In this document: one piece after another, positions 99 through 10,095 of the stretch
Numbering within the stretch: position 1 is the first letter of the stretch
Layout of the letters: each line of letters begins with the position of its first letter
Virus record (IMG/VR): IMGVR_UViG_2541047122_000013
Strand: one strand, 5' to 3'
Length of the DNA: 10,171 nucleotides
DNA from: a virus
Lineage: Duplodnaviria > Heunggongvirae > Uroviricota > Caudoviricetes
Position numbers and translations under genes: made by a program
Notes under the pieces: generated by a model
Database searches by the model: none
The model's input: the letters and a program-made list of their open reading frames with translations, nothing else
Told to the model about the DNA's origin: nothing

Positions 99-845
99 TT
101 GAGTAATGAGGATGCGGAACTGACAGCGGCGCGTATTGCTGCGGCGCTGGGACTGTATATCCGTAAAGGTGACGGACAGGACTATGAAGATCCGGGGAGC
201 AAAGAGACCGAGCGGGAAGTCCATATCACCCCGGGTATTATTTATGACGATTTGCGCAAGGGCGAGGATATCGGCATGGTCAAATCTGACCGTCCCAATC
301 CCAACCTTGAAACTTTCCGCAACGGCCAGTTGCGTGCAGTGGCAGCAGGCAGTCGTCTGAGTTTTTCCAGTGCGGCGCGTAACTATAACGGCACCTACAG
401 CGCCCAGCGGCAGGAGTTGGTCGAGTCCACGGATGGTTACCTGATCCTGCAGGACTGTTTTATTGGCGCGGTAACCCGCCCGGTGTACCGGACATGGCTG
501 AATATGGTGGTTGCGGCAGGTCTGCTGAAAATTCCGGCGGATGTGGAGATGAAAACGCTATATAACGCGACGTATTCCGGTCCGGTGATGCCGTGGATCG
601 ACCCGGTTAAGGAAGCTGAAGCCTGGAGAATTCAGATCCGGGGTGGTGCAGCGACAGAATCTGACTGGGTGCGTGCTGGTGGGCGCAATCCGGATGAGGT
701 CAAACGTCGCCGCAAGGCTGAAATTGATGAAAACAGCAGACTGGGGCTGGTCTTTGATACTGACCCCGTCAACGACAAAGGAGGCAACAGTGCCGGAACT
801 GAACGACAGTATCAGCGCGACACCGAAAGCCAGCATGAAGAATAA
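99..845 (+). CDS. Portal protein, lambda gpB family, C-terminal ~250 residues only (reading frame closed upstream; truncated or frameshifted)
   Basis: Translation (…RPNPNLETFRNGQLRAVAAGSRLSFSSAARNYNGTYSAQ…) resembles the C-terminal third of lambda portal gpB as I recall it (…LLRYIAAGLGVSYEQLSRNY…YS…). It sits directly upstream of the head protease gene, as portals do. The same frame has stop codons at 24-26 (TAG), 33-35 (TAG) and 48-50 (TAA), and the first start-like codon is TTG at 99 with no Shine-Dalgarno, so the ~280 N-terminal residues expected for a portal are not contiguous. The start coordinate is therefore nominal. Confidence 0.7.
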   Translation: MSNEDAELTAARIAAALGLYIRKGDGQDYEDPGSKETEREVHITPGIIYDDLRKGEDIGMVKSDRPNPNLETFRNGQLRAVAAGSRLSFSSAARNYNGTYSAQRQELVESTDGYLILQDCFIGAVTRPVYRTWLNMVVAAGLLKIPADVEMKTLYNATYSGPVMPWIDPVKEAEAWRIQIRGGAATESDWVRAGGRNPDEVKRRRKAEIDENSRLGLVFDTDPVNDKGGNSAGTERQYQRDTESQHEE

Positions 846-2817
846 ATCCTGGTTCAGGATGCAGGCTGGGGGGCCGGGTGACGCGGATATTTATATTTAT
901 GACGAGATTGGTTTCTGGGGAGTTACCGCGAAGCAGTTTGTCAGCGAACTGAATGCACTGGGTGATATCACCCACATTAATCTCCATATCAATTCACCGG
1001 GTGGCGATGTCTTTGAAGGCATCGCCATTTTTAATGCCCTGAAAAATCAGGGGGCGACCATTACCGTGTATGTGGATGGCGTTGCCGCCTCGATGGCATC
1101 TGTGATTGCGATGGCCGGTGATACGGTCATTATGCCGGAAAATGCCTTCATGATGATCCATAAGCCATGGGGATTCAGTGGCGGGGATGCTGAGGATATG
1201 CGCAGTTATGCCGATTTGCTGGATAAAGTCGAATCGGTACTGTTGCCAGCCTATGCGCAGAAAACCGGAAAAACCACCGATGAAATTGCCGCCATGCTGG
1301 CGGATGAAACCTGGATGTCCGGTGCCGAATGTCTGGCACACGGATTTGCTGACCAGGTGACACCCGCTGTTGAGGCAATGGCATGTATTCAGTCAAAACG
1401 TACAGAGGAATTTAAAAAGATGCCGGAATCCATTCGAAACATGATTACTCCGCCACGCAACAGTGCTCCACGCGTACAGGATGATGGACCTGCAGCCTCC
1501 CGGACGCCAGTGCAGGCAGCAGCACCTGTGGTGGATGAAAACAGTATCCGTGCGCAGGTACTGGCAGAGCAAAAAGCGCGTGTAAACGGTATTAATGATC
1601 TGTTTGCCATGTTTGGCGGGCGTTATCAGACGCTGCAGGCTCAGTGTCTTGCCGATCCTGAATGTTCGCTGGAGCAGGCCCGCGAAAAGCTGTTGAACGA
1701 GATGGGGCGCGAGTCCACGCCATCTAATAAAAATACCCCGGCTCATATTTATGCCGGAAACGGTAATTTTGTGGGGGATGGGATCCGCCAGGCGCTGATG
1801 GCGCGTGCCGGATTTGAAAAAACCGAACGTGATAATGTCTACAACGGGATGACCCTGCGTGAATATGCCCGTATGTCACTGACTGAACGGGGTATTGGGG
1901 TTTCCAGTTATAACCCGATGCAGATGGTCGGTGCGGCGTTCACACACAGTACGTCTGACTTCGGTAATATTCTGCTGGATGTTGCGAACAAAGCCATTCT
2001 GCAGGGCTGGGAAGATGCCCCTGAAACCTATGAACAGTGGACGCGGAAAGGTCAGTTGTCTGATTTTAAAATTGCCCATCGTGTGGGTATGGGGGGCTTC
2101 AGTGCTCTGCGTCAGGTGCGTGAAGGGGCGGAATATAAATACGTCACCACCGGAGATAAACAGGCCACTATTGCACTGGCGACCTATGGCGAGCTGTTCA
2201 GTATCACCCGTCAGGCCATTATCAATGATGATCTGAATATGCTGACCGATGTCCCGATGAAACTGGGCCGTGCGGCGAAATCCACTATTGCCGATCTGGT
2301 TTATGCCATTCTGACGTCTAACCCGAAAATCTCCACAGATAATGTAAGTCTGTTCGATAAAGCGAAACATGCAAACGTACTGGAGAGCGCTGCAATGGAC
2401 GTGGCATCGCTGGATAAAGCCCGCCAGTTGATGCGCGTTCAGAAAGAGGGGGAGCGTCATCTGAATATTCGTCCTGCGTTCGTACTGGTACCGACGGCGA
2501 TGGAGTCTGTTGCTAACCAGGTCATTCGCTCCTCAAGTGTCAAGGGGGCTGACATTAACGCCGGTATTATTAACCCGGTGAAAGATTTTGCGACCGTTAT
2601 TGCAGAGCCTCGTCTTGATGATAACAGCCAGACCACCTTCTACCTGGCTGCGTCAAAAGGCTCCGATACGATTGAAGTGGCTTATCTCAACGGTGTGGAT
2701 ACGCCATATATTGATCAGATGGAGGGCTTCAGTGTGGATGGCGTGACAACGAAAGTGCGTATTGACGCCGGTGTCGCGCCAGTTGATCACCGCGGTCTGG
2801 TGAAATGTACGGCGTAA
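790..2817 (+). CDS. Prohead protease (ClpP/S14-like) fused to major capsid protein (protease-scaffold-capsid single ORF)
   Basis: One uninterrupted frame. The N-terminal part has ClpP-type motifs: IYIYDEIG, INSPGGDVFEGIAIFNAL, an active-site-like GVAASMASVIAMAGD and MMIHKPWG. A Pro/Ala/Gln-rich linker follows, then ~400 residues with major-capsid character (…GVSSYNPMQMVGAAF…TFYLAASKGSDTIEVAYLNG…). Start chosen at GTG 790 because of the strong SD AAAGGAGG at 777-784 with 5-nt spacing. An in-frame ATG at 835 (MKNKSWF…) is an alternative start. The frame is also open back to 643 inside the portal gene. Stop is TAA 2815-2817. Confidence 0.8.
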   Translation: MPELNDSISATPKASMKNKSWFRMQAGGPGDADIYIYDEIGFWGVTAKQFVSELNALGDITHINLHINSPGGDVFEGIAIFNALKNQGATITVYVDGVAASMASVIAMAGDTVIMPENAFMMIHKPWGFSGGDAEDMRSYADLLDKVESVLLPAYAQKTGKTTDEIAAMLADETWMSGAECLAHGFADQVTPAVEAMACIQSKRTEEFKKMPESIRNMITPPRNSAPRVQDDGPAASRTPVQAAAPVVDENSIRAQVLAEQKARVNGINDLFAMFGGRYQTLQAQCLADPECSLEQAREKLLNEMGRESTPSNKNTPAHIYAGNGNFVGDGIRQALMARAGFEKTERDNVYNGMTLREYARMSLTERGIGVSSYNPMQMVGAAFTHSTSDFGNILLDVANKAILQGWEDAPETYEQWTRKGQLSDFKIAHRVGMGGFSALRQVREGAEYKYVTTGDKQATIALATYGELFSITRQAIINDDLNMLTDVPMKLGRAAKSTIADLVYAILTSNPKISTDNVSLFDKAKHANVLESAAMDVASLDKARQLMRVQKEGERHLNIRPAFVLVPTAMESVANQVIRSSSVKGADINAGIINPVKDFATVIAEPRLDDNSQTTFYLAASKGSDTIEVAYLNGVDTPYIDQMEGFSVDGVTTKVRIDAGVAPVDHRGLVKCTA

Positions 2818-4493: not shown

Positions 4494-5237
4494 ATGACCA
4501 CGCCAAATCCACTGGCAAAGACGAAAGGTGCGGGGACGACGTTCTGGATGTATACCGGCAACGGCGATGCGTTTGCGAACCCTTTGTCGGACACTGACTG
4601 GCTGCGTCTTGCGATGGTGAAGGATCTGCAACCTGGCGAAATGACCGCTGATGCAGAAGATGACACTTATCTCGATGATGAAGATGCAGACTGGAAAACG
4701 ACAACCCAGGGGCAGAAATCCGTTGGTGATACTTCGGCGACGCTGGCCTGGCGTCCGGGTGACAGCGGGCAGAAAAAACTGGTTCAGTTGTTCGACTCCG
4801 GTGAAGTCTGCGCGTTTCGTATCAAATATCCCAACGGCACTGTTGATGTTTTCCGCGGCTGGCTGAGCTCACTGGGTAAAACCATTGCCTCAAAAGACGT
4901 GATGACCCGCACAGTGAAAATCAGCGGTGTGGGGCGTCCATATCTGGCAGAGGAGGGCACTGAAACTGTGGGCGTTACCGGGCTGACGGTGGCACCGGCA
5001 TCCGCCAGTGTCAATGTGGGAGCAACCACCACGCTGACCTTTACAGTAAAACCTGACGGAGCCAGTGACAAAGCGATCAGTGTGCATTCGACAGATCCAC
5101 AGACAGCCACTGTGACCCTGAACGGACTTGTGGCCACGGTGAAAGGCGTGAAGCAGGGCAGCGTCAGCATTGTGGGCATGACCGCTGACGGGAATTTTGT
5201 GGCTGTGGCTGCGGTGACTGTCAGCGCTGCAGGTTAA
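4494..5237 (+). CDS. V: Major tail tube protein V with C-terminal Ig-like (Big_2-type) domain
   Basis: 247 aa. It is collinear with lambda gpV: NPLAKTKGAGTTFWMYTGNGDAFANPLSDTDW…YLDDEDADW…YPNGTVDVFRGWLSSLGK…RTVKISGVGRP. The C-terminal ~90 residues are Thr/Val/Ser-rich beta-type (TVAPASASVNVGATTTLTF…). Strong SD AGGAGGTG precedes ATG 4494. The ORF-track start at 4419 is an upstream extension that overlaps U. Confidence 0.9.
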   Translation: MTTPNPLAKTKGAGTTFWMYTGNGDAFANPLSDTDWLRLAMVKDLQPGEMTADAEDDTYLDDEDADWKTTTQGQKSVGDTSATLAWRPGDSGQKKLVQLFDSGEVCAFRIKYPNGTVDVFRGWLSSLGKTIASKDVMTRTVKISGVGRPYLAEEGTETVGVTGLTVAPASASVNVGATTTLTFTVKPDGASDKAISVHSTDPQTATVTLNGLVATVKGVKQGSVSIVGMTADGNFVAVAAVTVSAAG

Positions 5238-5257: not shown

Positions 5258-5281
5258 GCCCCGGTTATCCGGGGCTTTTTT
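5258..5281 (+). terminator. Intrinsic-terminator-like hairpin between V and G
   Basis: Perfect 7-bp GC stem GCCCCGG (5258-5264) / CCGGGGC (5269-5275) with tetraloop TTAT, followed directly by T6 (5276-5281). It lies 21 nt after the V stop. Confidence 0.55.
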
Positions 5282-5294
5282 GCAGGTGGAGAAC

Positions 5295-5684
5295 ATGATG
5301 TTTCTGAAACAGGGCACGTTTAATTATGAAAAGCAGTCCGTGGTGCTCAGTGAGCTGTCCGGGCTGCAGAGAATTGAATATCTGGCGTTTGTTCAGCAGC
5401 GAACGGCAAAGTTTGATGCCGAAGAGGGAGAACTGCCGGAGGCTGAACGACAGATTGCTTTTCTGCGGATGGGGATGGATATCAATGCCTGGCTGGTTTC
5501 CCGCTCACTGTGGAATGCGGAACAGTCTCAGGATGTTGAGACGCTTTGCGCATCCGTTATTACAACATGGTCGTATGATGCCCTGGGAGCGGGGGCGGAG
5601 ATGGTTCTGTCGCTGAGCGGTATGGGAGCCATTGAGAATGCCGGGGATTTGGAGCATGAGGTGCTGACGCCGGAAAAGTCCTGA
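5295..5684 (+). CDS. G: Tail assembly chaperone G
   Basis: 129 aa (MMFLKQGTFNYEKQSVVLSELSGLQRIEYLAF…). It resembles lambda gpG (MFLK…LSELSALQRIEHLA…LSGM). SD GGTGGAG precedes ATG 5295. ATG 5298 is an equally plausible start. The TTG 5256 of the ORF track lies inside the terminator hairpin. Confidence 0.8.
   Translation: MMFLKQGTFNYEKQSVVLSELSGLQRIEYLAFVQQRTAKFDAEEGELPEAERQIAFLRMGMDINAWLVSRSLWNAEQSQDVETLCASVITTWSYDALGAGAEMVLSLSGMGAIENAGDLEHEVLTPEKS
5672..5678 (+). other. Candidate -1 ribosomal slip site for G-T fusion (GGAAAAG)
   Basis: The T frame is the -1 frame relative to G and is open only from 5660 (TGA at 5657-5659). G stops at 5682-5684. A G-to-T shift must therefore occur within 5660-5684, and the only slippery-looking sequence there is G GAA AAG. 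Confidence 0.45.
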
Positions 5685-5692
5685 CGCGGGAA

Positions 5693-6022
5693 ATGCAGTT
5701 TGTCATGCGGCTTGCCCGGGAGTTCCGGCGGGCAGACTGGCGGCGGATGCTGTCGGAAATGTCGGCCACTGAGCTTGGTGAGTGGGGCGATTATTTCCGG
5801 ATGCAGAGCTTCAGTGATGTGTGGATGGATGCGCAGTTTGCCTCGCTGAAGGCATTGATCGTGAGAATGGTGTCCGGTAGCAGTGATGCTGCGGTGGCTG
5901 ATTTCAGCCTTTTACCGGAAGAGAACGGGATACCGGAGCGAACGGACGAAGAACTGATGCATCTTGGGGAAGGTATTTCCGGAGGTGTGCGTTATGGACC
6001 AGATAGCCAACCTGGTCATTGA
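5693..6022 (+). CDS. T: Tail assembly protein T segment, expected to be expressed as a G-T fusion by programmed -1 frameshift
   Basis: This ORF is in the -1 frame relative to G, lies immediately downstream, and has no SD of its own. The arrangement matches the conserved G/GT pair upstream of the tape measure gene. Coordinates are those of the ATG-defined ORF; the T reading frame itself opens at 5660. Confidence 0.7.
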   Translation: MQFVMRLAREFRRADWRRMLSEMSATELGEWGDYFRMQSFSDVWMDAQFASLKALIVRMVSGSSDAAVADFSLLPEENGIPERTDEELMHLGEGISGGVRYGPDSQPGH

Positions 6023-9000
6023 TTTGGGGATTGATGCGGCAGAGTTTAAAAATGAAATTCCCCGTATCAAAAACCTTCTGAATGGTGCAGCCAGCGATGC
6101 AGAACGGTCTTCTGCCCGTATGCAGCGTTTTATGGAGCGTCAGACTCAGGCCGCCCGGCAGACAATGCAGGCGGCTTCTTCGGCTGCAACAGCCGCATCC
6201 GTCCATGCGCAGACGGTGGAGAAGAGCGCACAGGCTCATGAACGCATGGCCCGCGAGGTGGAGCAAACCCGCCAGCGTATGGAGGCACTGAGCCAGAAAA
6301 TGCGCGAGGAACAGGCGCAGGCCATGGCTCTGGCGGAGGCTCAGGATAAAGCGGCTGCTGCGTTTTATCGTCAGATTGACAGTGTGAAACAGGCCGGTGC
6401 GGGGCTGCAGGAATTACAGCGTATTCAGCAACAGATCCGACAGGCCAGAAACAGTGGCGGGATTGGTCAGCAGGATTATCTGGCGCTGATTTCTGAGGTT
6501 ACGGCGAAAACCCGTGTTCTTACACAGGCTGAGGAAGAGGCTACCCGACAGAAAGTGGCGTTTATCCGTCAGCTTAAAGAGCAGGCAACCCGCCAGAATC
6601 TTTCTTCTTCTGAGTTGCTTCGTGCTAAGGCTGCCCAGCTGGGGGTAAGCAGTGCTGCAGAAGTGTATATCCGCAAAATGGAGCAGGCAGGAAAAGCCAC
6701 GCATTCGCTGGGTCTGAAAAGTGCAGCAGCCCGTCAGGAGATAGGCGTTCTGATAGGTGAACTGGCCCGCGGCAATTTAGGTGCGCTGAGGGGATCCGGA
6801 ATAACGCTGGCTAACCGTGCCGGGTGGATAGACACACTGATGTCACCGAAAGGCATGATGCCAGGAGCGGTTATTGGCGGTATTGCCGCGGCTGTCTATG
6901 GTCTGGGTAAAGCCTGGTATGACGGTCAGAAGGAGGGGGAAGAATTTAACCGCCAGCTGTCGCTGACGGGGCATTATGCCGGAGTCACTGCCGGGCAGCT
7001 GTGGACGCTCAGTCGTGCTATTTCCGGGAATGGTATCACGCAACATGCTGCAGCCGGTGCGCTGGCTCAGGTGGTGGGGAGTGGTGCATTTCGTGGAAAC
7101 GATATCGGTATGGTGGCGAGAGCTGCCGCACAGATGGAGCGATCGGTTGGCCAGTCGGTCAGCGATACCATAAATCAGTTTAAGCGGCTGAAGGATGATC
7201 CTGTAAATGCCGCGAAGGCTCTGGACAATGAGCTGCATTTTCTTACTGCCACTCAGCTTGAGCAGATACGCGTCCTTGGGGAGCAGGGGCGGTCCAGTGA
7301 TGCTGCACGGATAGCCATGTCTGCACTGGCAGAGGAAACCGGTCGGCGTACTGCGGATATTGATAATAACCTCAATGCGCTTGGCAGTACGCTGAAGTAT
7401 CTGTCTGATTTGTGGAGTCGTTTCTGGGATGCGGCCATGAATATTGGTCGTGAAGACTCGCTGGATGAACAGATTGCCGCTTTACAGGAGAAAGTGTCGC
7501 GGGCGAAAAGACTCCCCTGGACGGCATCATCTTCTCAGGTTGAATACGATCAGCAGCGTCTTAACGATCTTCAGGAGAAAAAACGCCAGAAGGATTTGCA
7601 GGATGCAAAAGAGCAGGCAGAGCGGAATTATCAGGAGCAACAGAAACGCCGTAATGCTGAAAATGCTGCACTGAACCGGATGAATGAAACGGAAGCAGCA
7701 CGACATCAGCGTGAAATAGCGCGTATTAATGCCATGCAGTACGCCGATCAGGCTGTCAGGGATGCGGCGATACAACGTGAAAATGAACGTTACGAGAAAG
7801 CCCTGGCATCCGGTAAGAAAAAAACACGCGAAACCCGTAATGATGAGGCCACCCGGTTATTGCTGCAGTACAGTCAGCAACAGGCACAGGTGGAAGGACA
7901 GATTGCTGCTGCCAGACAGTCAGCAGGCATTGCCACGGAAAGGATGACAGAAGCGCGTAAACAGCTTCTGGCTCTGCAGCAGCGCATCAGCGACCTGGAC
8001 GGGAAAAAACTGACGGCAGATGAAAAGAGTGTGCTGGCCCGTAAAGATGAACTGATTCAGGCACTGACGCTGCTGGATGTAAAACAGCAGGAGCTTCAGA
8101 AACAGACGGCACTCAACGAGCTGAAGAAAAAAACAATTCAGCTGACCAGTCAACTGGCTGAAGAAGAGCGCGCTCAGCGTCAGCAACATGACCTGGATAT
8201 CGCCACGGTGGGTATGGGTGATCAGCAGCGACAGCGATATCAGGTACAACTGAGTCTTCGCCAGAAATACCAGCAACAGCTGGAGCAGTTGAGGCGGGAT
8301 AGTGAGCAGAAAGGGACATATAACACGGATGACTACAGAAAGGCCGAGCAGGCGCTGACGGAGAGCCTGAACCGACAACTGAATGAGAATCGCCGTTACT
8401 GGCAACAGCTTGAAGTTGTACAGGGTAACTGGAAAAACGGAGTCCTGCGTGCATTTCAGGATTTTACCGTGGATGCAGATAATACGGCAGAAACAGCAGA
8501 ACAGGTGTTCTCGTCAGCCTTCAGCAACATGGGAAATGGCCTGGCAACTTTTGTCACTACCGGCAAACTCAATTTCAAATCCTTCACCTCTTCTGTGCTG
8601 TCAGATATGGCGAAAATCCTGGCGCAGGCAACCATGATGAAATCGATAAAAGGGATTGGCAGTGTACTGGGATTTGATCTCAGCAGCCTTTCCCTGAATG
8701 CCAATGGGGGGATTTATCAGTCTGCTGATTTGAGTCGTTACAGTGGCACGGTGGTTAACCGTCCGACGTTTTTTGCTTTTGCAAAAGGCGCGGGTGTGAT
8801 GGGGGAAGCGGGACCTGAAGCCATTCTGCCATTGCGTCGTGGTGCTGACGGTAAGCTGGGGGTTGTGGCGGATATTGGGGGTTCAGGTATGGCGATGTTT
8901 TCCCCGCAGTACAACATCGAGATCAATAACGATGGCACGAACGGGCAGATAGGTCCGGCTGCCCTGAAGGCGGTTTATGACCTCGGGAAAAAAGCGGCAG

Positions 9001-9059
9001 CGGACTTTATGCAACAGCAGGCCCGTGATGGTGGTCGGTTAAGTGGAGCATATCGGTAA
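5994..9059 (+). CDS. H: Tail tape measure protein H
   Basis: 1021 aa. Long Ala/Gln/Glu/Arg-rich coiled-coil-like stretches. A hydrophobic Gly-rich segment (GMMPGAVIGGIAAAVYGLG). The C-terminal block GGIYQSADLSRYSGTVVNRPTFFAFAKGAGVMGEAGPEAILPLRRGADGKLGV is the lambda-family tape-measure C-terminal signature. SD GGAGGTG (5981-5987) precedes ATG 5994, which overlaps the 3' end of T. Confidence 0.9.
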   Translation: MDQIANLVIDLGIDAAEFKNEIPRIKNLLNGAASDAERSSARMQRFMERQTQAARQTMQAASSAATAASVHAQTVEKSAQAHERMAREVEQTRQRMEALSQKMREEQAQAMALAEAQDKAAAAFYRQIDSVKQAGAGLQELQRIQQQIRQARNSGGIGQQDYLALISEVTAKTRVLTQAEEEATRQKVAFIRQLKEQATRQNLSSSELLRAKAAQLGVSSAAEVYIRKMEQAGKATHSLGLKSAAARQEIGVLIGELARGNLGALRGSGITLANRAGWIDTLMSPKGMMPGAVIGGIAAAVYGLGKAWYDGQKEGEEFNRQLSLTGHYAGVTAGQLWTLSRAISGNGITQHAAAGALAQVVGSGAFRGNDIGMVARAAAQMERSVGQSVSDTINQFKRLKDDPVNAAKALDNELHFLTATQLEQIRVLGEQGRSSDAARIAMSALAEETGRRTADIDNNLNALGSTLKYLSDLWSRFWDAAMNIGREDSLDEQIAALQEKVSRAKRLPWTASSSQVEYDQQRLNDLQEKKRQKDLQDAKEQAERNYQEQQKRRNAENAALNRMNETEAARHQREIARINAMQYADQAVRDAAIQRENERYEKALASGKKKTRETRNDEATRLLLQYSQQQAQVEGQIAAARQSAGIATERMTEARKQLLALQQRISDLDGKKLTADEKSVLARKDELIQALTLLDVKQQELQKQTALNELKKKTIQLTSQLAEEERAQRQQHDLDIATVGMGDQQRQRYQVQLSLRQKYQQQLEQLRRDSEQKGTYNTDDYRKAEQALTESLNRQLNENRRYWQQLEVVQGNWKNGVLRAFQDFTVDADNTAETAEQVFSSAFSNMGNGLATFVTTGKLNFKSFTSSVLSDMAKILAQATMMKSIKGIGSVLGFDLSSLSLNANGGIYQSADLSRYSGTVVNRPTFFAFAKGAGVMGEAGPEAILPLRRGADGKLGVVADIGGSGMAMFSPQYNIEINNDGTNGQIGPAALKAVYDLGKKAAADFMQQQARDGGRLSGAYR

Positions 9060-9397: not shown

Positions 9398-10095
9398 ATG
9401 CAGGATATTCCACAGGAAACACATCATGAGACGACACGCCTCACTCAGTCAGCCCAGGCGGTGCTCTGGGAAATCGATCTGACAGAGGTCGGTGGTGAAC
9501 GTTATTTTTTCTGTAATGAGCAGAACGAAAAAGGTGAGCCGGTTACCTGGCAGGGGCGGCAGTATCAGGCATACCCCATTCAGGGGACGGGATTTGAACT
9601 GAACGGCAAGGGCAGTTCTGCCCGTCCGACACTGACGGTTTCTAACCTGCACGGCATGGTCACGGGGATGGCGGAAGACCTGCAGAGTCTGGTCGGCGGA
9701 ACGGTGGTCCGGCGTAAGGTTTACGCCCGTTTTCTGGATGCGGTGAACTTCGTCAACGGAAACAGCGACGCCGATCCGGAGCAGGAGGTGATCAGCCGCT
9801 GGCGCATTGAGCAGTGCAGCGAACTGAGCGCGGTGAGTGCCTCTTTTGTACTGTCCACGCCGACGGAAACGGACGGCGCTGTTTTTCCGGGCGTATCATG
9901 CTGGCCAACACCTGCACCTGGACCTATCGCGGCGATGAGTGCGGTTATCACGGTCCGGCGGTCGCGGATGAATATGACCAGCCAACGTCCGATATCACGA
10001 AGGATAAATGCAGCAAATGCCTGAGCGGTTGTAAGTTCCGCAATAACGTCGGCAACTTTGGCGGCTTCCTTTCCATTAACAAACTTTCGCAGTAA
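9398..10095 (+). pseudogene. L: Minor tail protein L (tail tip assembly, Cys-rich C-terminal domain), disrupted by a 1-nt frame break near 9887-9892
   Basis: ORF 9398..10024 encodes an N-terminal part that is nearly identical to lambda gpL as I recall it (MQDI…LWEIDLTEVGGERYFFCNEQNEKGEPVTWQGRQYQ…) up to …DGAVFPG. The conserved C-terminus GRIMLANTCTWTYRGDECGY…KCSKCLSGCKFRNN…LSINKLSQ is in the -1 frame (ORF 9814..10095). Joining the two at CCGGG/CG gives 164 + 68 = 232 aa, the length of intact gpL. SD AGGAGG precedes ATG 9398. Confidence 0.8.

What the first reader, a model, noticed from the sequence alone, without database searches (positions are those of the whole stretch)
5660..5700. G/G-T -1 frameshift arrangement with a slip site that differs from the lambda heptamer
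The G and T frames have the conserved geometry (T in -1, no SD, immediately upstream of the tape measure gene). The overlap window that permits frameshifting is only 25 nt (5660-5684). It contains GGAAAAG (G GAA AAG) rather than the lambda G GGA AAG. The A-site AAG-to-AAA slip is the classic efficient one, but the P-site re-pairing (GAA to GGA) is imperfect, so efficiency and mechanism may differ. The site sits 2 codons before the G stop, which could itself stimulate slippage.
Basis: partly seen in the sequence, partly recalled or inferred. Interest (0 to 1): 0.5.

Follow-up and report, generated by a model that had tools for sequence, protein, structure and literature searches.

The report
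Lambda-type G/GT tail chaperone frameshift site
This is the programmed −1 ribosomal frameshift site that lets a lambda-like E. coli prophage make a small amount of a G‑T fusion tail-assembly chaperone; its slip sequence GGAAAAG differs from phage lambda's GGGAAAG by one base. That variant is already annotated in phage N15 and turns out to be the commonest form in this gene family, so the finding is real but ordinary.

Summary
G (5295/5298–5684) is overlapped by a −1 frame that opens at 5660. The only plausible slip site in the 25-nt overlap is G_GAA_AAG (5672–5678), one sense codon before the G stop. T continues to 6022 and overlaps the tape measure gene.

G and T are bona fide lambda G and T family members. 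The heptamer sits at the position homologous to lambda's G_GGA_AAG, and the slip-site-to-T-domain register is conserved.

GGAAAAG is not an oddity:
- The N15 GenBank record annotates this very heptamer as the slippery sequence for the −1 frameshift.
- It is present in phi80, mEp043, Gifsy-1 and many prophages.
- In an unbiased survey, 48 of 70 family representatives end in …E‑K, against 4 in …G‑K.
- The A_AAG core is nearly invariant.
- The synonymous base before GAA is G in 24 of 26 lineages.

ATG 5693 has the weakest Shine-Dalgarno of 12 starts in the window and is not conserved in relatives.

I found no conserved downstream RNA structure. An upstream SD-like GAGGTG is clade-specific and unproven.

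Verdict: a real, conserved, already recognised kind of recoding site. Databases still annotate T as a stand-alone protein. Efficiency on this heptamer appears unmeasured in its native context.

The parts
4494..5237 (+). Major tail protein V (context: gene immediately upstream of G), with a C-terminal Ig-like domain
   Evidence: Pfam PF16461 Phage_TTP_12 plus PF02368 Big_2. RefSeq annotation of an identical O157:H7 prophage copy.
5258..5281 (+). Intrinsic-terminator-like hairpin plus T-run between V and G
   Evidence: GCCCCGG-TTAT-CCGGGGC followed by TTTTTT. Annotated as a terminator in phage Ayreon. An analogous feature lies between genes 13 and 14 of N15.
5295..5684 (+). Gene G, tail assembly chaperone. 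Zero frame, 129 aa from ATG 5295. RefSeq starts it at ATG 5298 (128 aa).
   Evidence: Translation. PF06894 at 7.8e-39 and TIGR01674 phage_lambda_G at 5.7e-56. SD duplex -7.0 kcal/mol.
5657..5659 (+). TGA stop in the -1 frame that sets the 5' limit of the permissive window
   Evidence: Read directly from the sequence. The -1 frame translation is open from 5660.
5658..5663 (+). SD-like GAGGTG ending 8 nt upstream of the heptamer. A possible stimulator; inferred, not shown.
   Evidence: Anti-SD duplex -9.2 kcal/mol, in the top 5% of windows in its own G gene. Similar elements occur in the Salmonella and Symbiopectobacterium relatives. They are absent from N15, phi80, mEp043 and the close relative L114.
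5660..5684 (+). 25-nt overlap in which a -1 shift leads from G into T
5672..5678 (+). Slip heptamer G_GAA_AAG. Zero frame reads Glu-Lys; the -1 frame reads GGA AAA.
   Evidence: Homologous position to lambda G_GGA_AAG. Same heptamer annotated as the slippery sequence in N15. Conserved in 16 of 24 lineage clusters. The synonymous base at position 0 is G in 24 of 26.
5682..5684 (+). G stop codon TGA (context TGA-C), one sense codon (TCC) after the heptamer
5678..6022 (+). T segment, -1 frame. Read from GTC 5678 after the slip; 114 aa plus the stop at 6020-6022.
   Evidence: Translation. PF06223 and TIGR01715 phage_lam_T at 2.3e-39, starting at fusion residue 133. 38% identity to lambda T and 43% to N15 gp15, in register from the slip site.
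5693..5695 (+). ATG used by database annotation as the start of a stand-alone 109-aa T. Probably not a real start.
   Evidence: Annotated so in cdtI, Ayreon (later start) and RefSeq E. coli. SD duplex only -2.2 kcal/mol, the weakest of 12 starts. The Met is not conserved in relatives.
5994..9059 (+). Tape measure gene H (context). Its start overlaps the T 3' end by 29 nt.
   Evidence: PF06791, PF24622 and PF09718. RefSeq annotation. SD GGAGGTG at -13.3 kcal/mol.

Best explanation
This is the programmed -1 ribosomal frameshift site of a lambda-type tail assembly chaperone gene pair.

Most ribosomes translate G (5295/5298-5684) and stop at TGA 5682, giving the 128/129-aa chaperone. A small fraction slip back one base when peptidyl-tRNA-Glu is on GAA (5673-5675) in the P site and Lys-tRNA is on AAG (5676-5678) in the A site.
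- tRNA-Lys re-pairs perfectly on AAA (5675-5677).
- tRNA-Glu re-pairs on GGA (5672-5674) with a G.U mismatch at the middle position.
- Reading then continues with GTC 5678 in the T frame to 6022.

The product is a 241/242-aa G-T fusion with the junction ...TPEK-VLTREMQ.... By analogy with lambda, the G part binds the tape measure protein and the T part recruits the major tail protein, and the low G-T:G ratio is set by the slip frequency.

Shown here: the anatomy, the family membership, the homology of the site and its conservation.
Inferred: that slippage occurs, its frequency, and the relative contribution of the two tRNAs. The driver is most likely the tRNA-Lys slip on A_AAG, with the P-site re-pairing contributing partially.
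For: - Frames, overlap and heptamer are as described.
- G matches TIGR01674/PF06894 and T matches TIGR01715/PF06223. The genes lie between V and H.
- The heptamer is at the position homologous to lambda's proven site. The T alignment is in exact register from the slip site.
- N15's record annotates GGAAAAG as the 'slippery sequence for -1 translational frameshift'. Gifsy-1's T homologue is annotated as made by translational frameshifting.
- Across 358 loci and 24 clusters, GGAAAAG predominates in 16 clusters. It lies on both deep branches of the tree.
- Among full-length 50%-identity representatives from 1.84 billion proteins, 48 of 70 end in E-K at 0, 1 or 5 residues from the C-terminus. All five E-K cases whose DNA I checked read GAA AAG.
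- The A_AAG core is 98% conserved, against 57% for the upstream flank.
- Position 0, a third base of Pro/Ala/Leu/Val codons, is G in 24 of 26 against 44% expected. The binomial P is 3e-7; the lineages are not independent, so this overstates significance.
- ATG 5693 has the weakest SD in the window and is not conserved.
- Literature: A_AAG is the most shift-prone tetramer in E. coli (PMC4066793). NNA_AAG sites such as IS1222 G_CGA_AAG are used productively (PMC5009743). Lambda needs only a ratio of about 30:1 (PMC5009743).
Against: - There is no experimental evidence for this locus or, as far as I could find, for this heptamer in its native context.
- In a reconstituted E. coli system, AUG_GAA_AAG was chosen as the unfavourable control. 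It gave mainly zero-frame product, unlike G_GGA_AAG (PMC6924986).
- In reporters, tetramers without a stimulator were barely above background: 0.147% against 0.112% (PMC4066793).
- No conserved downstream structure was found here.
- The upstream SD-like element is not conserved family-wide.
- Some relatives use heptamers with essentially no P-site re-pairing, such as A_GCA_AAG. The contribution of the P-site tRNA is therefore uncertain.
Confidence: 0.85

Rival explanations
1. T is made on its own. It would start either by direct initiation at ATG 5693 or by termination-reinitiation after the G stop 8 nt upstream. No frameshift is then needed.
For: - All database records for this module annotate a separate T ORF from an ATG.
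- The 109-aa protein is on at least 1000 contigs, while the fusion is absent from a 15-billion-protein collection.
- ATG 5693 lies only 8 nt after TGA 5682-5684, a distance compatible with reinitiation.
Against: - The SD duplex is -2.2 kcal/mol, the weakest of 12 starts in the window.
- The Met is replaced by I, L, R or V in relatives. Annotated T starts differ arbitrarily between phages.
- Conserved T residues (V/A-L-x-x-E-x-x-F) and the TIGR01715 match begin upstream of the ATG, directly after the heptamer.
- In lambda the function requires G and T in one polypeptide (PMC5009743).
Confidence: 0.07
2. A frameshift does occur, but purely as a single-tRNA slip of tRNA-Lys on the tetramer A_AAG. 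The three bases before it (GGA) would be irrelevant to slippage and conserved only for coding reasons.
For: - A_AAR is the only invariant part of the site. Positions 0-2 read GGA, GGG, GGC, AGA, AAA, CCC or AGC in different relatives.
- A_GCA_AAG sites allow no P-site re-pairing.
- Hexamer NNA_AAG sites are known to work (PMC5009743).
Against: - Position 0 is a synonymous third base in five different codon families, yet it is G in 24 of 26 lineages.
- Where it is not G it often restores an X_XXY pattern, as in A_AAA_AAG and C_CCA_AAG.
- In-phase A_AAG occurs 12 times elsewhere in the window's genes, so the tetramer alone gives no specificity.
- Tetramers alone are barely shifty in reporters (PMC4066793).
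Confidence: 0.3
3. The shift happens one codon earlier, so that GGA and AAA are decoded in the -1 frame and the fusion carries Gly-Lys (…TPGKVLTR…). This would explain why the -1 frame always reads Gly-Lys in the family.
For: The -1 frame reads G-K-[V/A/I] in nearly all relatives, whatever the zero frame encodes. For lambda the two models give the same peptide, so the lambda protein data cannot separate them (my own knowledge of Levin et al. 1993; not checked here).
Against: The preceding codon varies (CCG, GCG, CTG, TTG, GTG) and its tRNA cannot re-pair in the -1 frame. Some relatives read S-K or P-K in the -1 frame instead. The conservation of GG is equally explained by P-site re-pairing.
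Confidence: 0.05
4. The heptamer is there by chance or as a decayed site. This widespread prophage module, often cryptic, would no longer make G-T.
For: GGAAAAG is not rare in the window. Many carriers are resident prophages, some with damaged genes, such as the split portal gene in O157:H7 MB41-1.
Against: - The identical site is present in plaque-forming phages: Ayreon, mEp460, cdtI, phi80 and N15.
- It is 100% conserved in 152 loci of this cluster.
- It is retained across lineages whose G proteins are only 35-40% identical.
Confidence: 0.03

Closest known systems
Phage lambda G / G-T programmed -1 frameshift (Levin, Hendrix & Casjens 1993; Xu, Hendrix & Duda 2004, 2013, 2014; as summarised in PMC5009743)
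   Same: - Same gene families (TIGR01674, TIGR01715).
- Same gene order V-G-T-H.
- T lies in the -1 frame without its own start.
- The slip site is at the homologous codon pair, and the register from slip site to T domain is the same.
   Different: - The heptamer is G_GAA_AAG instead of G_GGA_AAG: one G-to-A change at position 3, giving zero-frame Glu instead of Gly and a P-site middle-position G.U mismatch.
- The G stop follows after 1 codon instead of 5.
- The overlap is 25 nt instead of 64 nt.
- G is only 36% identical and T only 38% identical.
Phage N15 genes 14/15 (NC_001901), with an annotated 'slippery sequence for -1 translational frameshift'
   Same: The heptamer GGAAAAG is identical, in the same phase and at the same aligned position. 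T is 43% identical from the first residue after the slip.
   Different: N15 has the lambda-like geometry, with 5 codons to the G stop, and no SD-like element upstream. The annotation is a prediction; I found no measurement.
Salmonella prophage Gifsy-1 STM2596/STM2595
   Same: It is the closest annotated relative outside E. coli, with G 55% identical. It has the same ccG GAA AAG TCC TGA ending. Its T homologue is annotated as produced by translational frameshifting.
   Different: The record still lists T as a separate CDS, and the upstream sequence differs.
NNA_AAG hexanucleotide / A_AAG tetranucleotide -1 sites (Licznar et al. 2003; IS1222 G_CGA_AAG; B. subtilis cdd A_CGA_AAG; cited in PMC5009743 and PMC4066793)
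   Same: The tRNA-Lys slip AAG to AAA is the driver, the preceding codon re-pairs imperfectly, and the level is low.
   Different: Those sites depend on a strong downstream pseudoknot or hairpin for useful levels. None is detectable here. GAA is read by a tRNA with restricted wobble, unlike CGA.
E. coli dnaX A_AAA_AAG with an upstream SD-like stimulator and a downstream hairpin
   Same: AAG is in the A site. In this window there is an SD-like GAGGTG at a comparable distance upstream: 8 nt here, about 10 nt in dnaX (PMC6924986).
   Different: There is no downstream hairpin and the P-site re-pairing is imperfect. A low level is expected rather than 50-80%. The SD-like element is not conserved in the family.

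Membership tests
Lambda-type G/G-T tail assembly chaperone with programmed -1 frameshift | Two short ORFs located between the major tail (tube) protein gene and the tape measure gene | tested here: met
   V 4494-5237, G 5295-5684, T to 6022, H 5994-9059.
Lambda-type G/G-T tail assembly chaperone with programmed -1 frameshift | The upstream ORF belongs to the lambda gpG family | tested here: met
   PF06894 at 7.8e-39. TIGR01674 equivalog at 188 bits against a cutoff of 74.
Lambda-type G/G-T tail assembly chaperone with programmed -1 frameshift | The downstream ORF belongs to the lambda gpT family | tested here: met
   PF06223 at 2e-14. TIGR01715 equivalog at 134 bits against a cutoff of 77. 38% identity to lambda T.
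Lambda-type G/G-T tail assembly chaperone with programmed -1 frameshift | T is in the -1 frame, overlaps the 3' end of G, and has no conserved start codon or ribosome binding site of its own | tested here: met
   Frames. SD -2.2 kcal/mol. Met 5693 is not conserved.
Lambda-type G/G-T tail assembly chaperone with programmed -1 frameshift | A conserved slippery sequence in the overlap, in the correct phase | tested here: met
   G_GAA_AAG at 5672-5678. Conserved in relatives and homologous to the lambda site.
Lambda-type G/G-T tail assembly chaperone with programmed -1 frameshift | A G-T fusion protein is actually produced at a low ratio to G (about 1:30 in lambda) | not testable with these tools
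   This needs a reporter assay, western blot or mass spectrometry. The predicted fusion is not in the protein collection.
Lambda-type G/G-T tail assembly chaperone with programmed -1 frameshift | Both G and G-T are required for assembly of tails of correct length | not testable with these tools
   This is a genetic test in a plaque-forming member such as Ayreon or mEp460.
Canonical tandem-slippage heptamer X_XXY_YYZ | The first three bases are identical (XXX), so that the P-site tRNA re-pairs at positions 1 and 2 | tested here: not met
   The bases are GGA. After the shift, tRNA-Glu faces GGA with a middle-position G.U mismatch. PMC6924986 describes it as unfavourable.
Canonical tandem-slippage heptamer X_XXY_YYZ | Bases 4-6 are identical (YYY), so that the A-site tRNA re-pairs | tested here: met
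   AAA at 5675-5677, with AAG to AAA for the single E. coli tRNA-Lys (PMC5009743).
NNA_AAG / Z_ZZN single-tRNA slip sites | An A_AAG tetramer in phase | tested here: met
   5675-5678. Invariant or A_AAA in all relatives.
NNA_AAG / Z_ZZN single-tRNA slip sites | Dependence on a strong downstream RNA structure 5-9 nt after the site | tested here: not met
   The downstream fold is no better than shuffles (z -1.3 and -0.2). RNAalifold on 9 relatives gives -8.8 kcal/mol with a covariation term of 0.05.
dnaX-type stimulated -1 site | A Shine-Dalgarno-like element 6-17 nt upstream of the shift site | tested here: inconclusive
   GAGGTG at 5658-5663 gives -9.2 kcal/mol, in the top 5% of its own gene. 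It is absent in N15, phi80, mEp043 and L114.

The most novel reading that the evidence does not exclude
The textbook lambda heptamer G_GGA_AAG is the exception in its own gene family. The predominant, and possibly ancestral, G-T slip site would be the non-canonical G_GAA_AAG, a sequence used in vitro as a 'non-slippery' control. It would work in vivo without any conserved RNA stimulator, driven by the tRNA-Lys slip and tolerating a second-position G.U mismatch of the P-site tRNA-Glu. These natural Glu-Lys sites, unlike lambda's Gly-Lys, would let a single junction peptide show on which codon the ribosome shifts.
Probability: 0.5. Interest if true: 0.4.

Novelty: already known. Interest (0 to 1): 0.25.

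Why it matters
For annotation: this module is present in about a third of complete E. coli genomes (1848 of 5426). It is everywhere annotated as G plus a stand-alone 109-aa T. The real second product is almost certainly a 241/242-aa G-T fusion that no database holds.

For recoding biology: the family gives a natural series of slip sites at one homologous position. The series runs G_GAA_AAG, G_GGA_AAG, A_GAA_AAG, G_GCA_AAR, A_GCA_AAG, C_CCA_AAR and A_AAA_AAG. All presumably deliver a similar low G-T:G ratio.

That series is a ready-made test of how much P-site re-pairing matters. It covers second-position mismatches, which the published thermodynamic model of -1 frameshifting did not include (PMC6787027). 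None of this changes the view that the site itself is an ordinary member of a well-known system.

Tried and rejected
- Downstream stimulatory RNA structure. Folds of 5679-5740 and 5679-5800 are no more stable than shuffles. The consensus fold of 9 relatives has no covariation support. Rejected.
- Upstream SD-like element as a compensator for the weaker heptamer. It is strong in the window, Salmonella and Symbiopectobacterium lineages. It is absent in N15, phi80, mEp043 and the close relative L114. Kept only as a clade-specific possibility.
- Stop-codon proximity as a required stimulator. The same heptamer works at 0, 1 or 5 codons from the stop. Not required.
- Natural in-frame G-T fusions P0032 and P0046 as evidence for the fusion product. 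They are deletion fusions, not slip products. Uninformative.
- Transcriptional slippage. A run of four A is far shorter than the runs of more than 7 cited for this mechanism (PMC3711429). Rejected.
- Internal initiation in the -1 frame downstream of GAGGTG. There is no ATG, GTG or TTG in that frame before 5693. Rejected.
- Literature search for a measurement of GGAAAAG in a phage G-T context. None was found in the held library. Xu et al. 2004, Licznar et al. 2003 and the phi80 genome paper are not held.
- The genome-contig scan gave only 13 loci. Several viral scans returned mostly identical copies. Diversity came from divergent queries and from the representative-protein search.
Full report
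**What is in the sequence.**
The window is the head-tail module of a lambdoid E. coli phage or prophage.
- The G-T region is 99.9% identical to phage Ayreon and about 98% identical to mEp460 and cdtI.
- Near-identical copies occur in 1848 of 5426 complete E. coli genomes, including O157:H7.
- Gene G runs from ATG 5295 (RefSeq uses ATG 5298) to TGA 5682-5684. It ends ...GAG GTG CTG ACG CCG GAA AAG TCC TGA.
- The -1 frame has a TGA at 5657-5659 and is then open from 5660 to the stop at 6020-6022.
- The permissive overlap is therefore 5660-5684, 25 nt.
- T overlaps the start of the tape measure gene (ATG 5994) by 29 nt.
- The predicted fusion is 241/242 aa with the junction ...TPEK|VLTREMQ....

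**Is it more than chance?**
The heptamer alone is not.
- GGAAAAG occurs 5 times in the window against 1.5 expected.
- The two other plus-strand copies are in the phase GGA_AAA_G.
- In-phase A_AAG occurs 12 times in the window's genes.

The signal lies in phase, position and conservation, as set out below.

**Family membership and homology of the site.**
- The fusion protein matches PF06894/TIGR01674 (lambda G) and PF06223/TIGR01715 (lambda T) well above the curated cutoffs. The neighbours are lambda-type Z, U, V, H and M.
- Lambda reads gcG GGA AAG tgt at the aligned place.
- The T-frame peptide after the heptamer aligns without gaps: residue 5 to residue 5 of lambda T (38% identity), and residue 1 to residue 1 of N15 gp15 (43%).
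- The window's site is therefore the lambda site with a single G-to-A difference at heptamer position 3.

**The heptamer is already recognised.**
- The N15 record NC_001901 carries a misc_feature 'slippery sequence for -1 translational frameshift' at 10027-10033. Read out, it is GGAAAAG.
- Gifsy-1's T homologue ends in the same ccG GAA AAG TCC TGA. It is annotated as part of the chaperone 'by translational frameshifting'.
- The records for this window's own phage group, and RefSeq for E. coli, still list a stand-alone T from an ATG.
- The 109-aa T is on at least 1000 contigs. The predicted fusion is absent from a 15-billion-protein collection.

**Survey of relatives.**
I called G, the -1 overlap and the heptamer in 358 loci. 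These gave 138 distinct fusions and 24 clusters at 85% identity. The sample is biased by my choice of queries.

| Heptamer | Clusters | Examples |
|---|---|---|
| GGAAAAG (sole or predominant) | 16 | window clade, Salmonella Gifsy type, N15, phi80, mEp043, Klebsiella, Enterobacter, Providencia, Symbiopectobacterium, Superficieibacter |
| GGGAAAG | 4 | lambda, Stx2a phages, a Serratia/Symbiopectobacterium group |
| GGCAAAA followed by TAG | 2 | — |
| AAAAAAG | 1 | an Stx1 phage |

Single variants GGCAAAG and AGAAAAG also occur.

- On a neighbour-joining tree GGAAAAG lies on both deep branches. GGGAAAG appears in at least two separate places.
- For an unbiased view I searched a G profile against 1.84 billion cluster representatives. 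That gave 119 hits, of which 70 are full length.
- Of those 70, 48 end in ...E-K at 0, 1 or 5 residues from the C-terminus. Only 4 end in G-K, 4 in A-K and 4 in P-K.
- I checked the DNA of ten of the 70.
  - Four of the five E-K cases read G_GAA_AAG; the fifth reads A_GAA_AAG next to a stop.
  - The P-K cases read C_CCA_AAR.
  - The A-K cases read A_GCA_AAG.
  - The one G-K case read G_GGA_AAG.

**Conservation pattern.**
Anchored on the heptamer, 24 representatives show:
- 98% identity for A_AAG;
- 93% for the heptamer;
- 57% for the 30 nt upstream;
- 72-78% downstream, where the T domain starts.

Position 0 is the third base of a Pro, Ala, Leu or Val codon. It is G in 24 of 26 lineages, where the window's own codon usage predicts 44%. 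The binomial P is 3e-7, which overstates significance because the lineages are related. Where position 0 is not G, the site often restores an X_XXY pattern, as in A_AAA_AAG and C_CCA_AAG.

This argues that P-site re-pairing is under selection. The A_GCA_AAG sites show it is not indispensable.

**T is not independently initiated.**
- ATG 5693 has an anti-SD duplex of -2.2 kcal/mol, the weakest of 12 starts in the window. G has -7.0, H -13.3 and V -16.6.
- The Met is I, L, R or V in relatives.
- Conserved T residues begin right after the heptamer.
- Reinitiation 8 nt after the G stop cannot be excluded for this locus alone. It cannot hold for the family.

**Stimulators.**
- No downstream structure stands out (z -1.3 and -0.2), and none is conserved.
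- GAGGTG at 5658-5663 pairs with the anti-SD at -9.2 kcal/mol, 8 nt before the heptamer. That is in the top 5% of windows in its own gene. Similar elements occur in the Salmonella and Symbiopectobacterium relatives, but not in N15, phi80, mEp043 or L114.
- The G stop is 1 codon away here, and 0 or 5 codons away elsewhere.
- Both features may modulate efficiency in this clade. Neither is a family requirement.

**Mechanism and literature.**
- E. coli's single tRNA-Lys pairs better with AAA than with AAG. A_AAG is the most shift-prone tetramer, and NNA_AAG sites are used by IS1222 and occur in B. subtilis cdd (PMC5009743; PMC4066793).
- Against high efficiency, a reconstituted-system study used AUG GAA AAG as the unfavourable control. 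The reason given was that tRNA-Glu would face GGA with a second-position mismatch. It gave mainly zero-frame product (PMC6924986).
- Tetramers without a stimulator are barely above background in reporters.
- Lambda needs only a ratio of about 1:30, so a weak site may be exactly what is selected.
- The published thermodynamic model did not cover second-position mismatches (PMC6787027).
- I found no measurement of this heptamer in a phage G-T context. Xu et al. 2004 and Licznar et al. 2003 are not in the held library.

**Verdict.**
The site is an ordinary member of the lambda-type G/G-T frameshift system. Its heptamer has been annotated in N15's GenBank record and is in fact the majority form in the family.

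Two things remain open:
- how efficient G_GAA_AAG is in vivo;
- how much the mismatched P-site tRNA contributes.

The practical consequence is an annotation gap: the fusion protein is missing from databases for a module carried by a third of E. coli genomes.

Noticed in passing
window 5258-5281: A strong intrinsic-terminator-like hairpin (GCCCCGG-TTAT-CCGGGGC plus T6) lies between the major tail gene V and G. It is annotated as a terminator in Ayreon, and an analogous one sits between genes 13 and 14 of N15. It probably lowers G/T/H expression relative to V.
   Followed up: partly
P0046 (212 aa) and P0032 (215 aa), from public assemblies: These are natural or assembly-derived in-frame deletion fusions of G to T. 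The P0046 junction SYDA|GKVLTREMQ joins G residue ~96 to the -1 frame 'GK', apparently through the GATGCC/GACGCC microhomology. P0001 is a G with an internal tandem duplication.
   Followed up: partly
L093, L110, L111 (Ewingella and metagenome); L369, L371; L277, L364-L367, L372: Relatives in which the slip motif abuts the G stop directly: ctG GCA AAA TAG, atG GGA AAA TAG and ctG/ttG GAA AAG TAG. These look like stop-codon-adjacent versions of the same site.
   Followed up: partly
L393, L394 (A_GCA_AAG); L388, L395 (C_CCA_AAA/G); L278 (A_AAA_AAG): Further heptamer types occur at the homologous G/T junction. A_GCA_AAG allows no P-site re-pairing at all.
   Followed up: partly
window 5326-5616 (+), -1 frame relative to G: A 96-codon open -1 frame lies inside G, starting next to an in-phase T_GAA_AAG (5329-5335). 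A slip there would give an aberrant product, not T. It was not examined further.
   Followed up: no
window 5994-6022: The T 3' end and the tape measure gene start overlap by 29 nt. The strong SD of H (GGAGGTG, -13.3 kcal/mol) lies inside the T coding sequence.
   Followed up: partly
L004 1-590 (O157:H7 strain MB41-1), corresponding to about window 256-845: In this RefSeq copy the portal gene is annotated as two separate CDS, which suggests a disrupted portal in that resident prophage. The window's own ORF 99-845 was not analysed.
   Followed up: no
window 643-2817: A single long ORF is annotated in RefSeq as a ClpP-like prohead protease / major capsid protein fusion.
   Followed up: no
L085 (MAG labelled Bacillota) and L088 (MAG labelled Proteobacteria, soil): Metagenome-assembled genomes with unexpected taxonomic labels carry G 99% and 94% identical to this E. 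coli prophage module. This probably reflects contamination or mis-binning.
   Followed up: no
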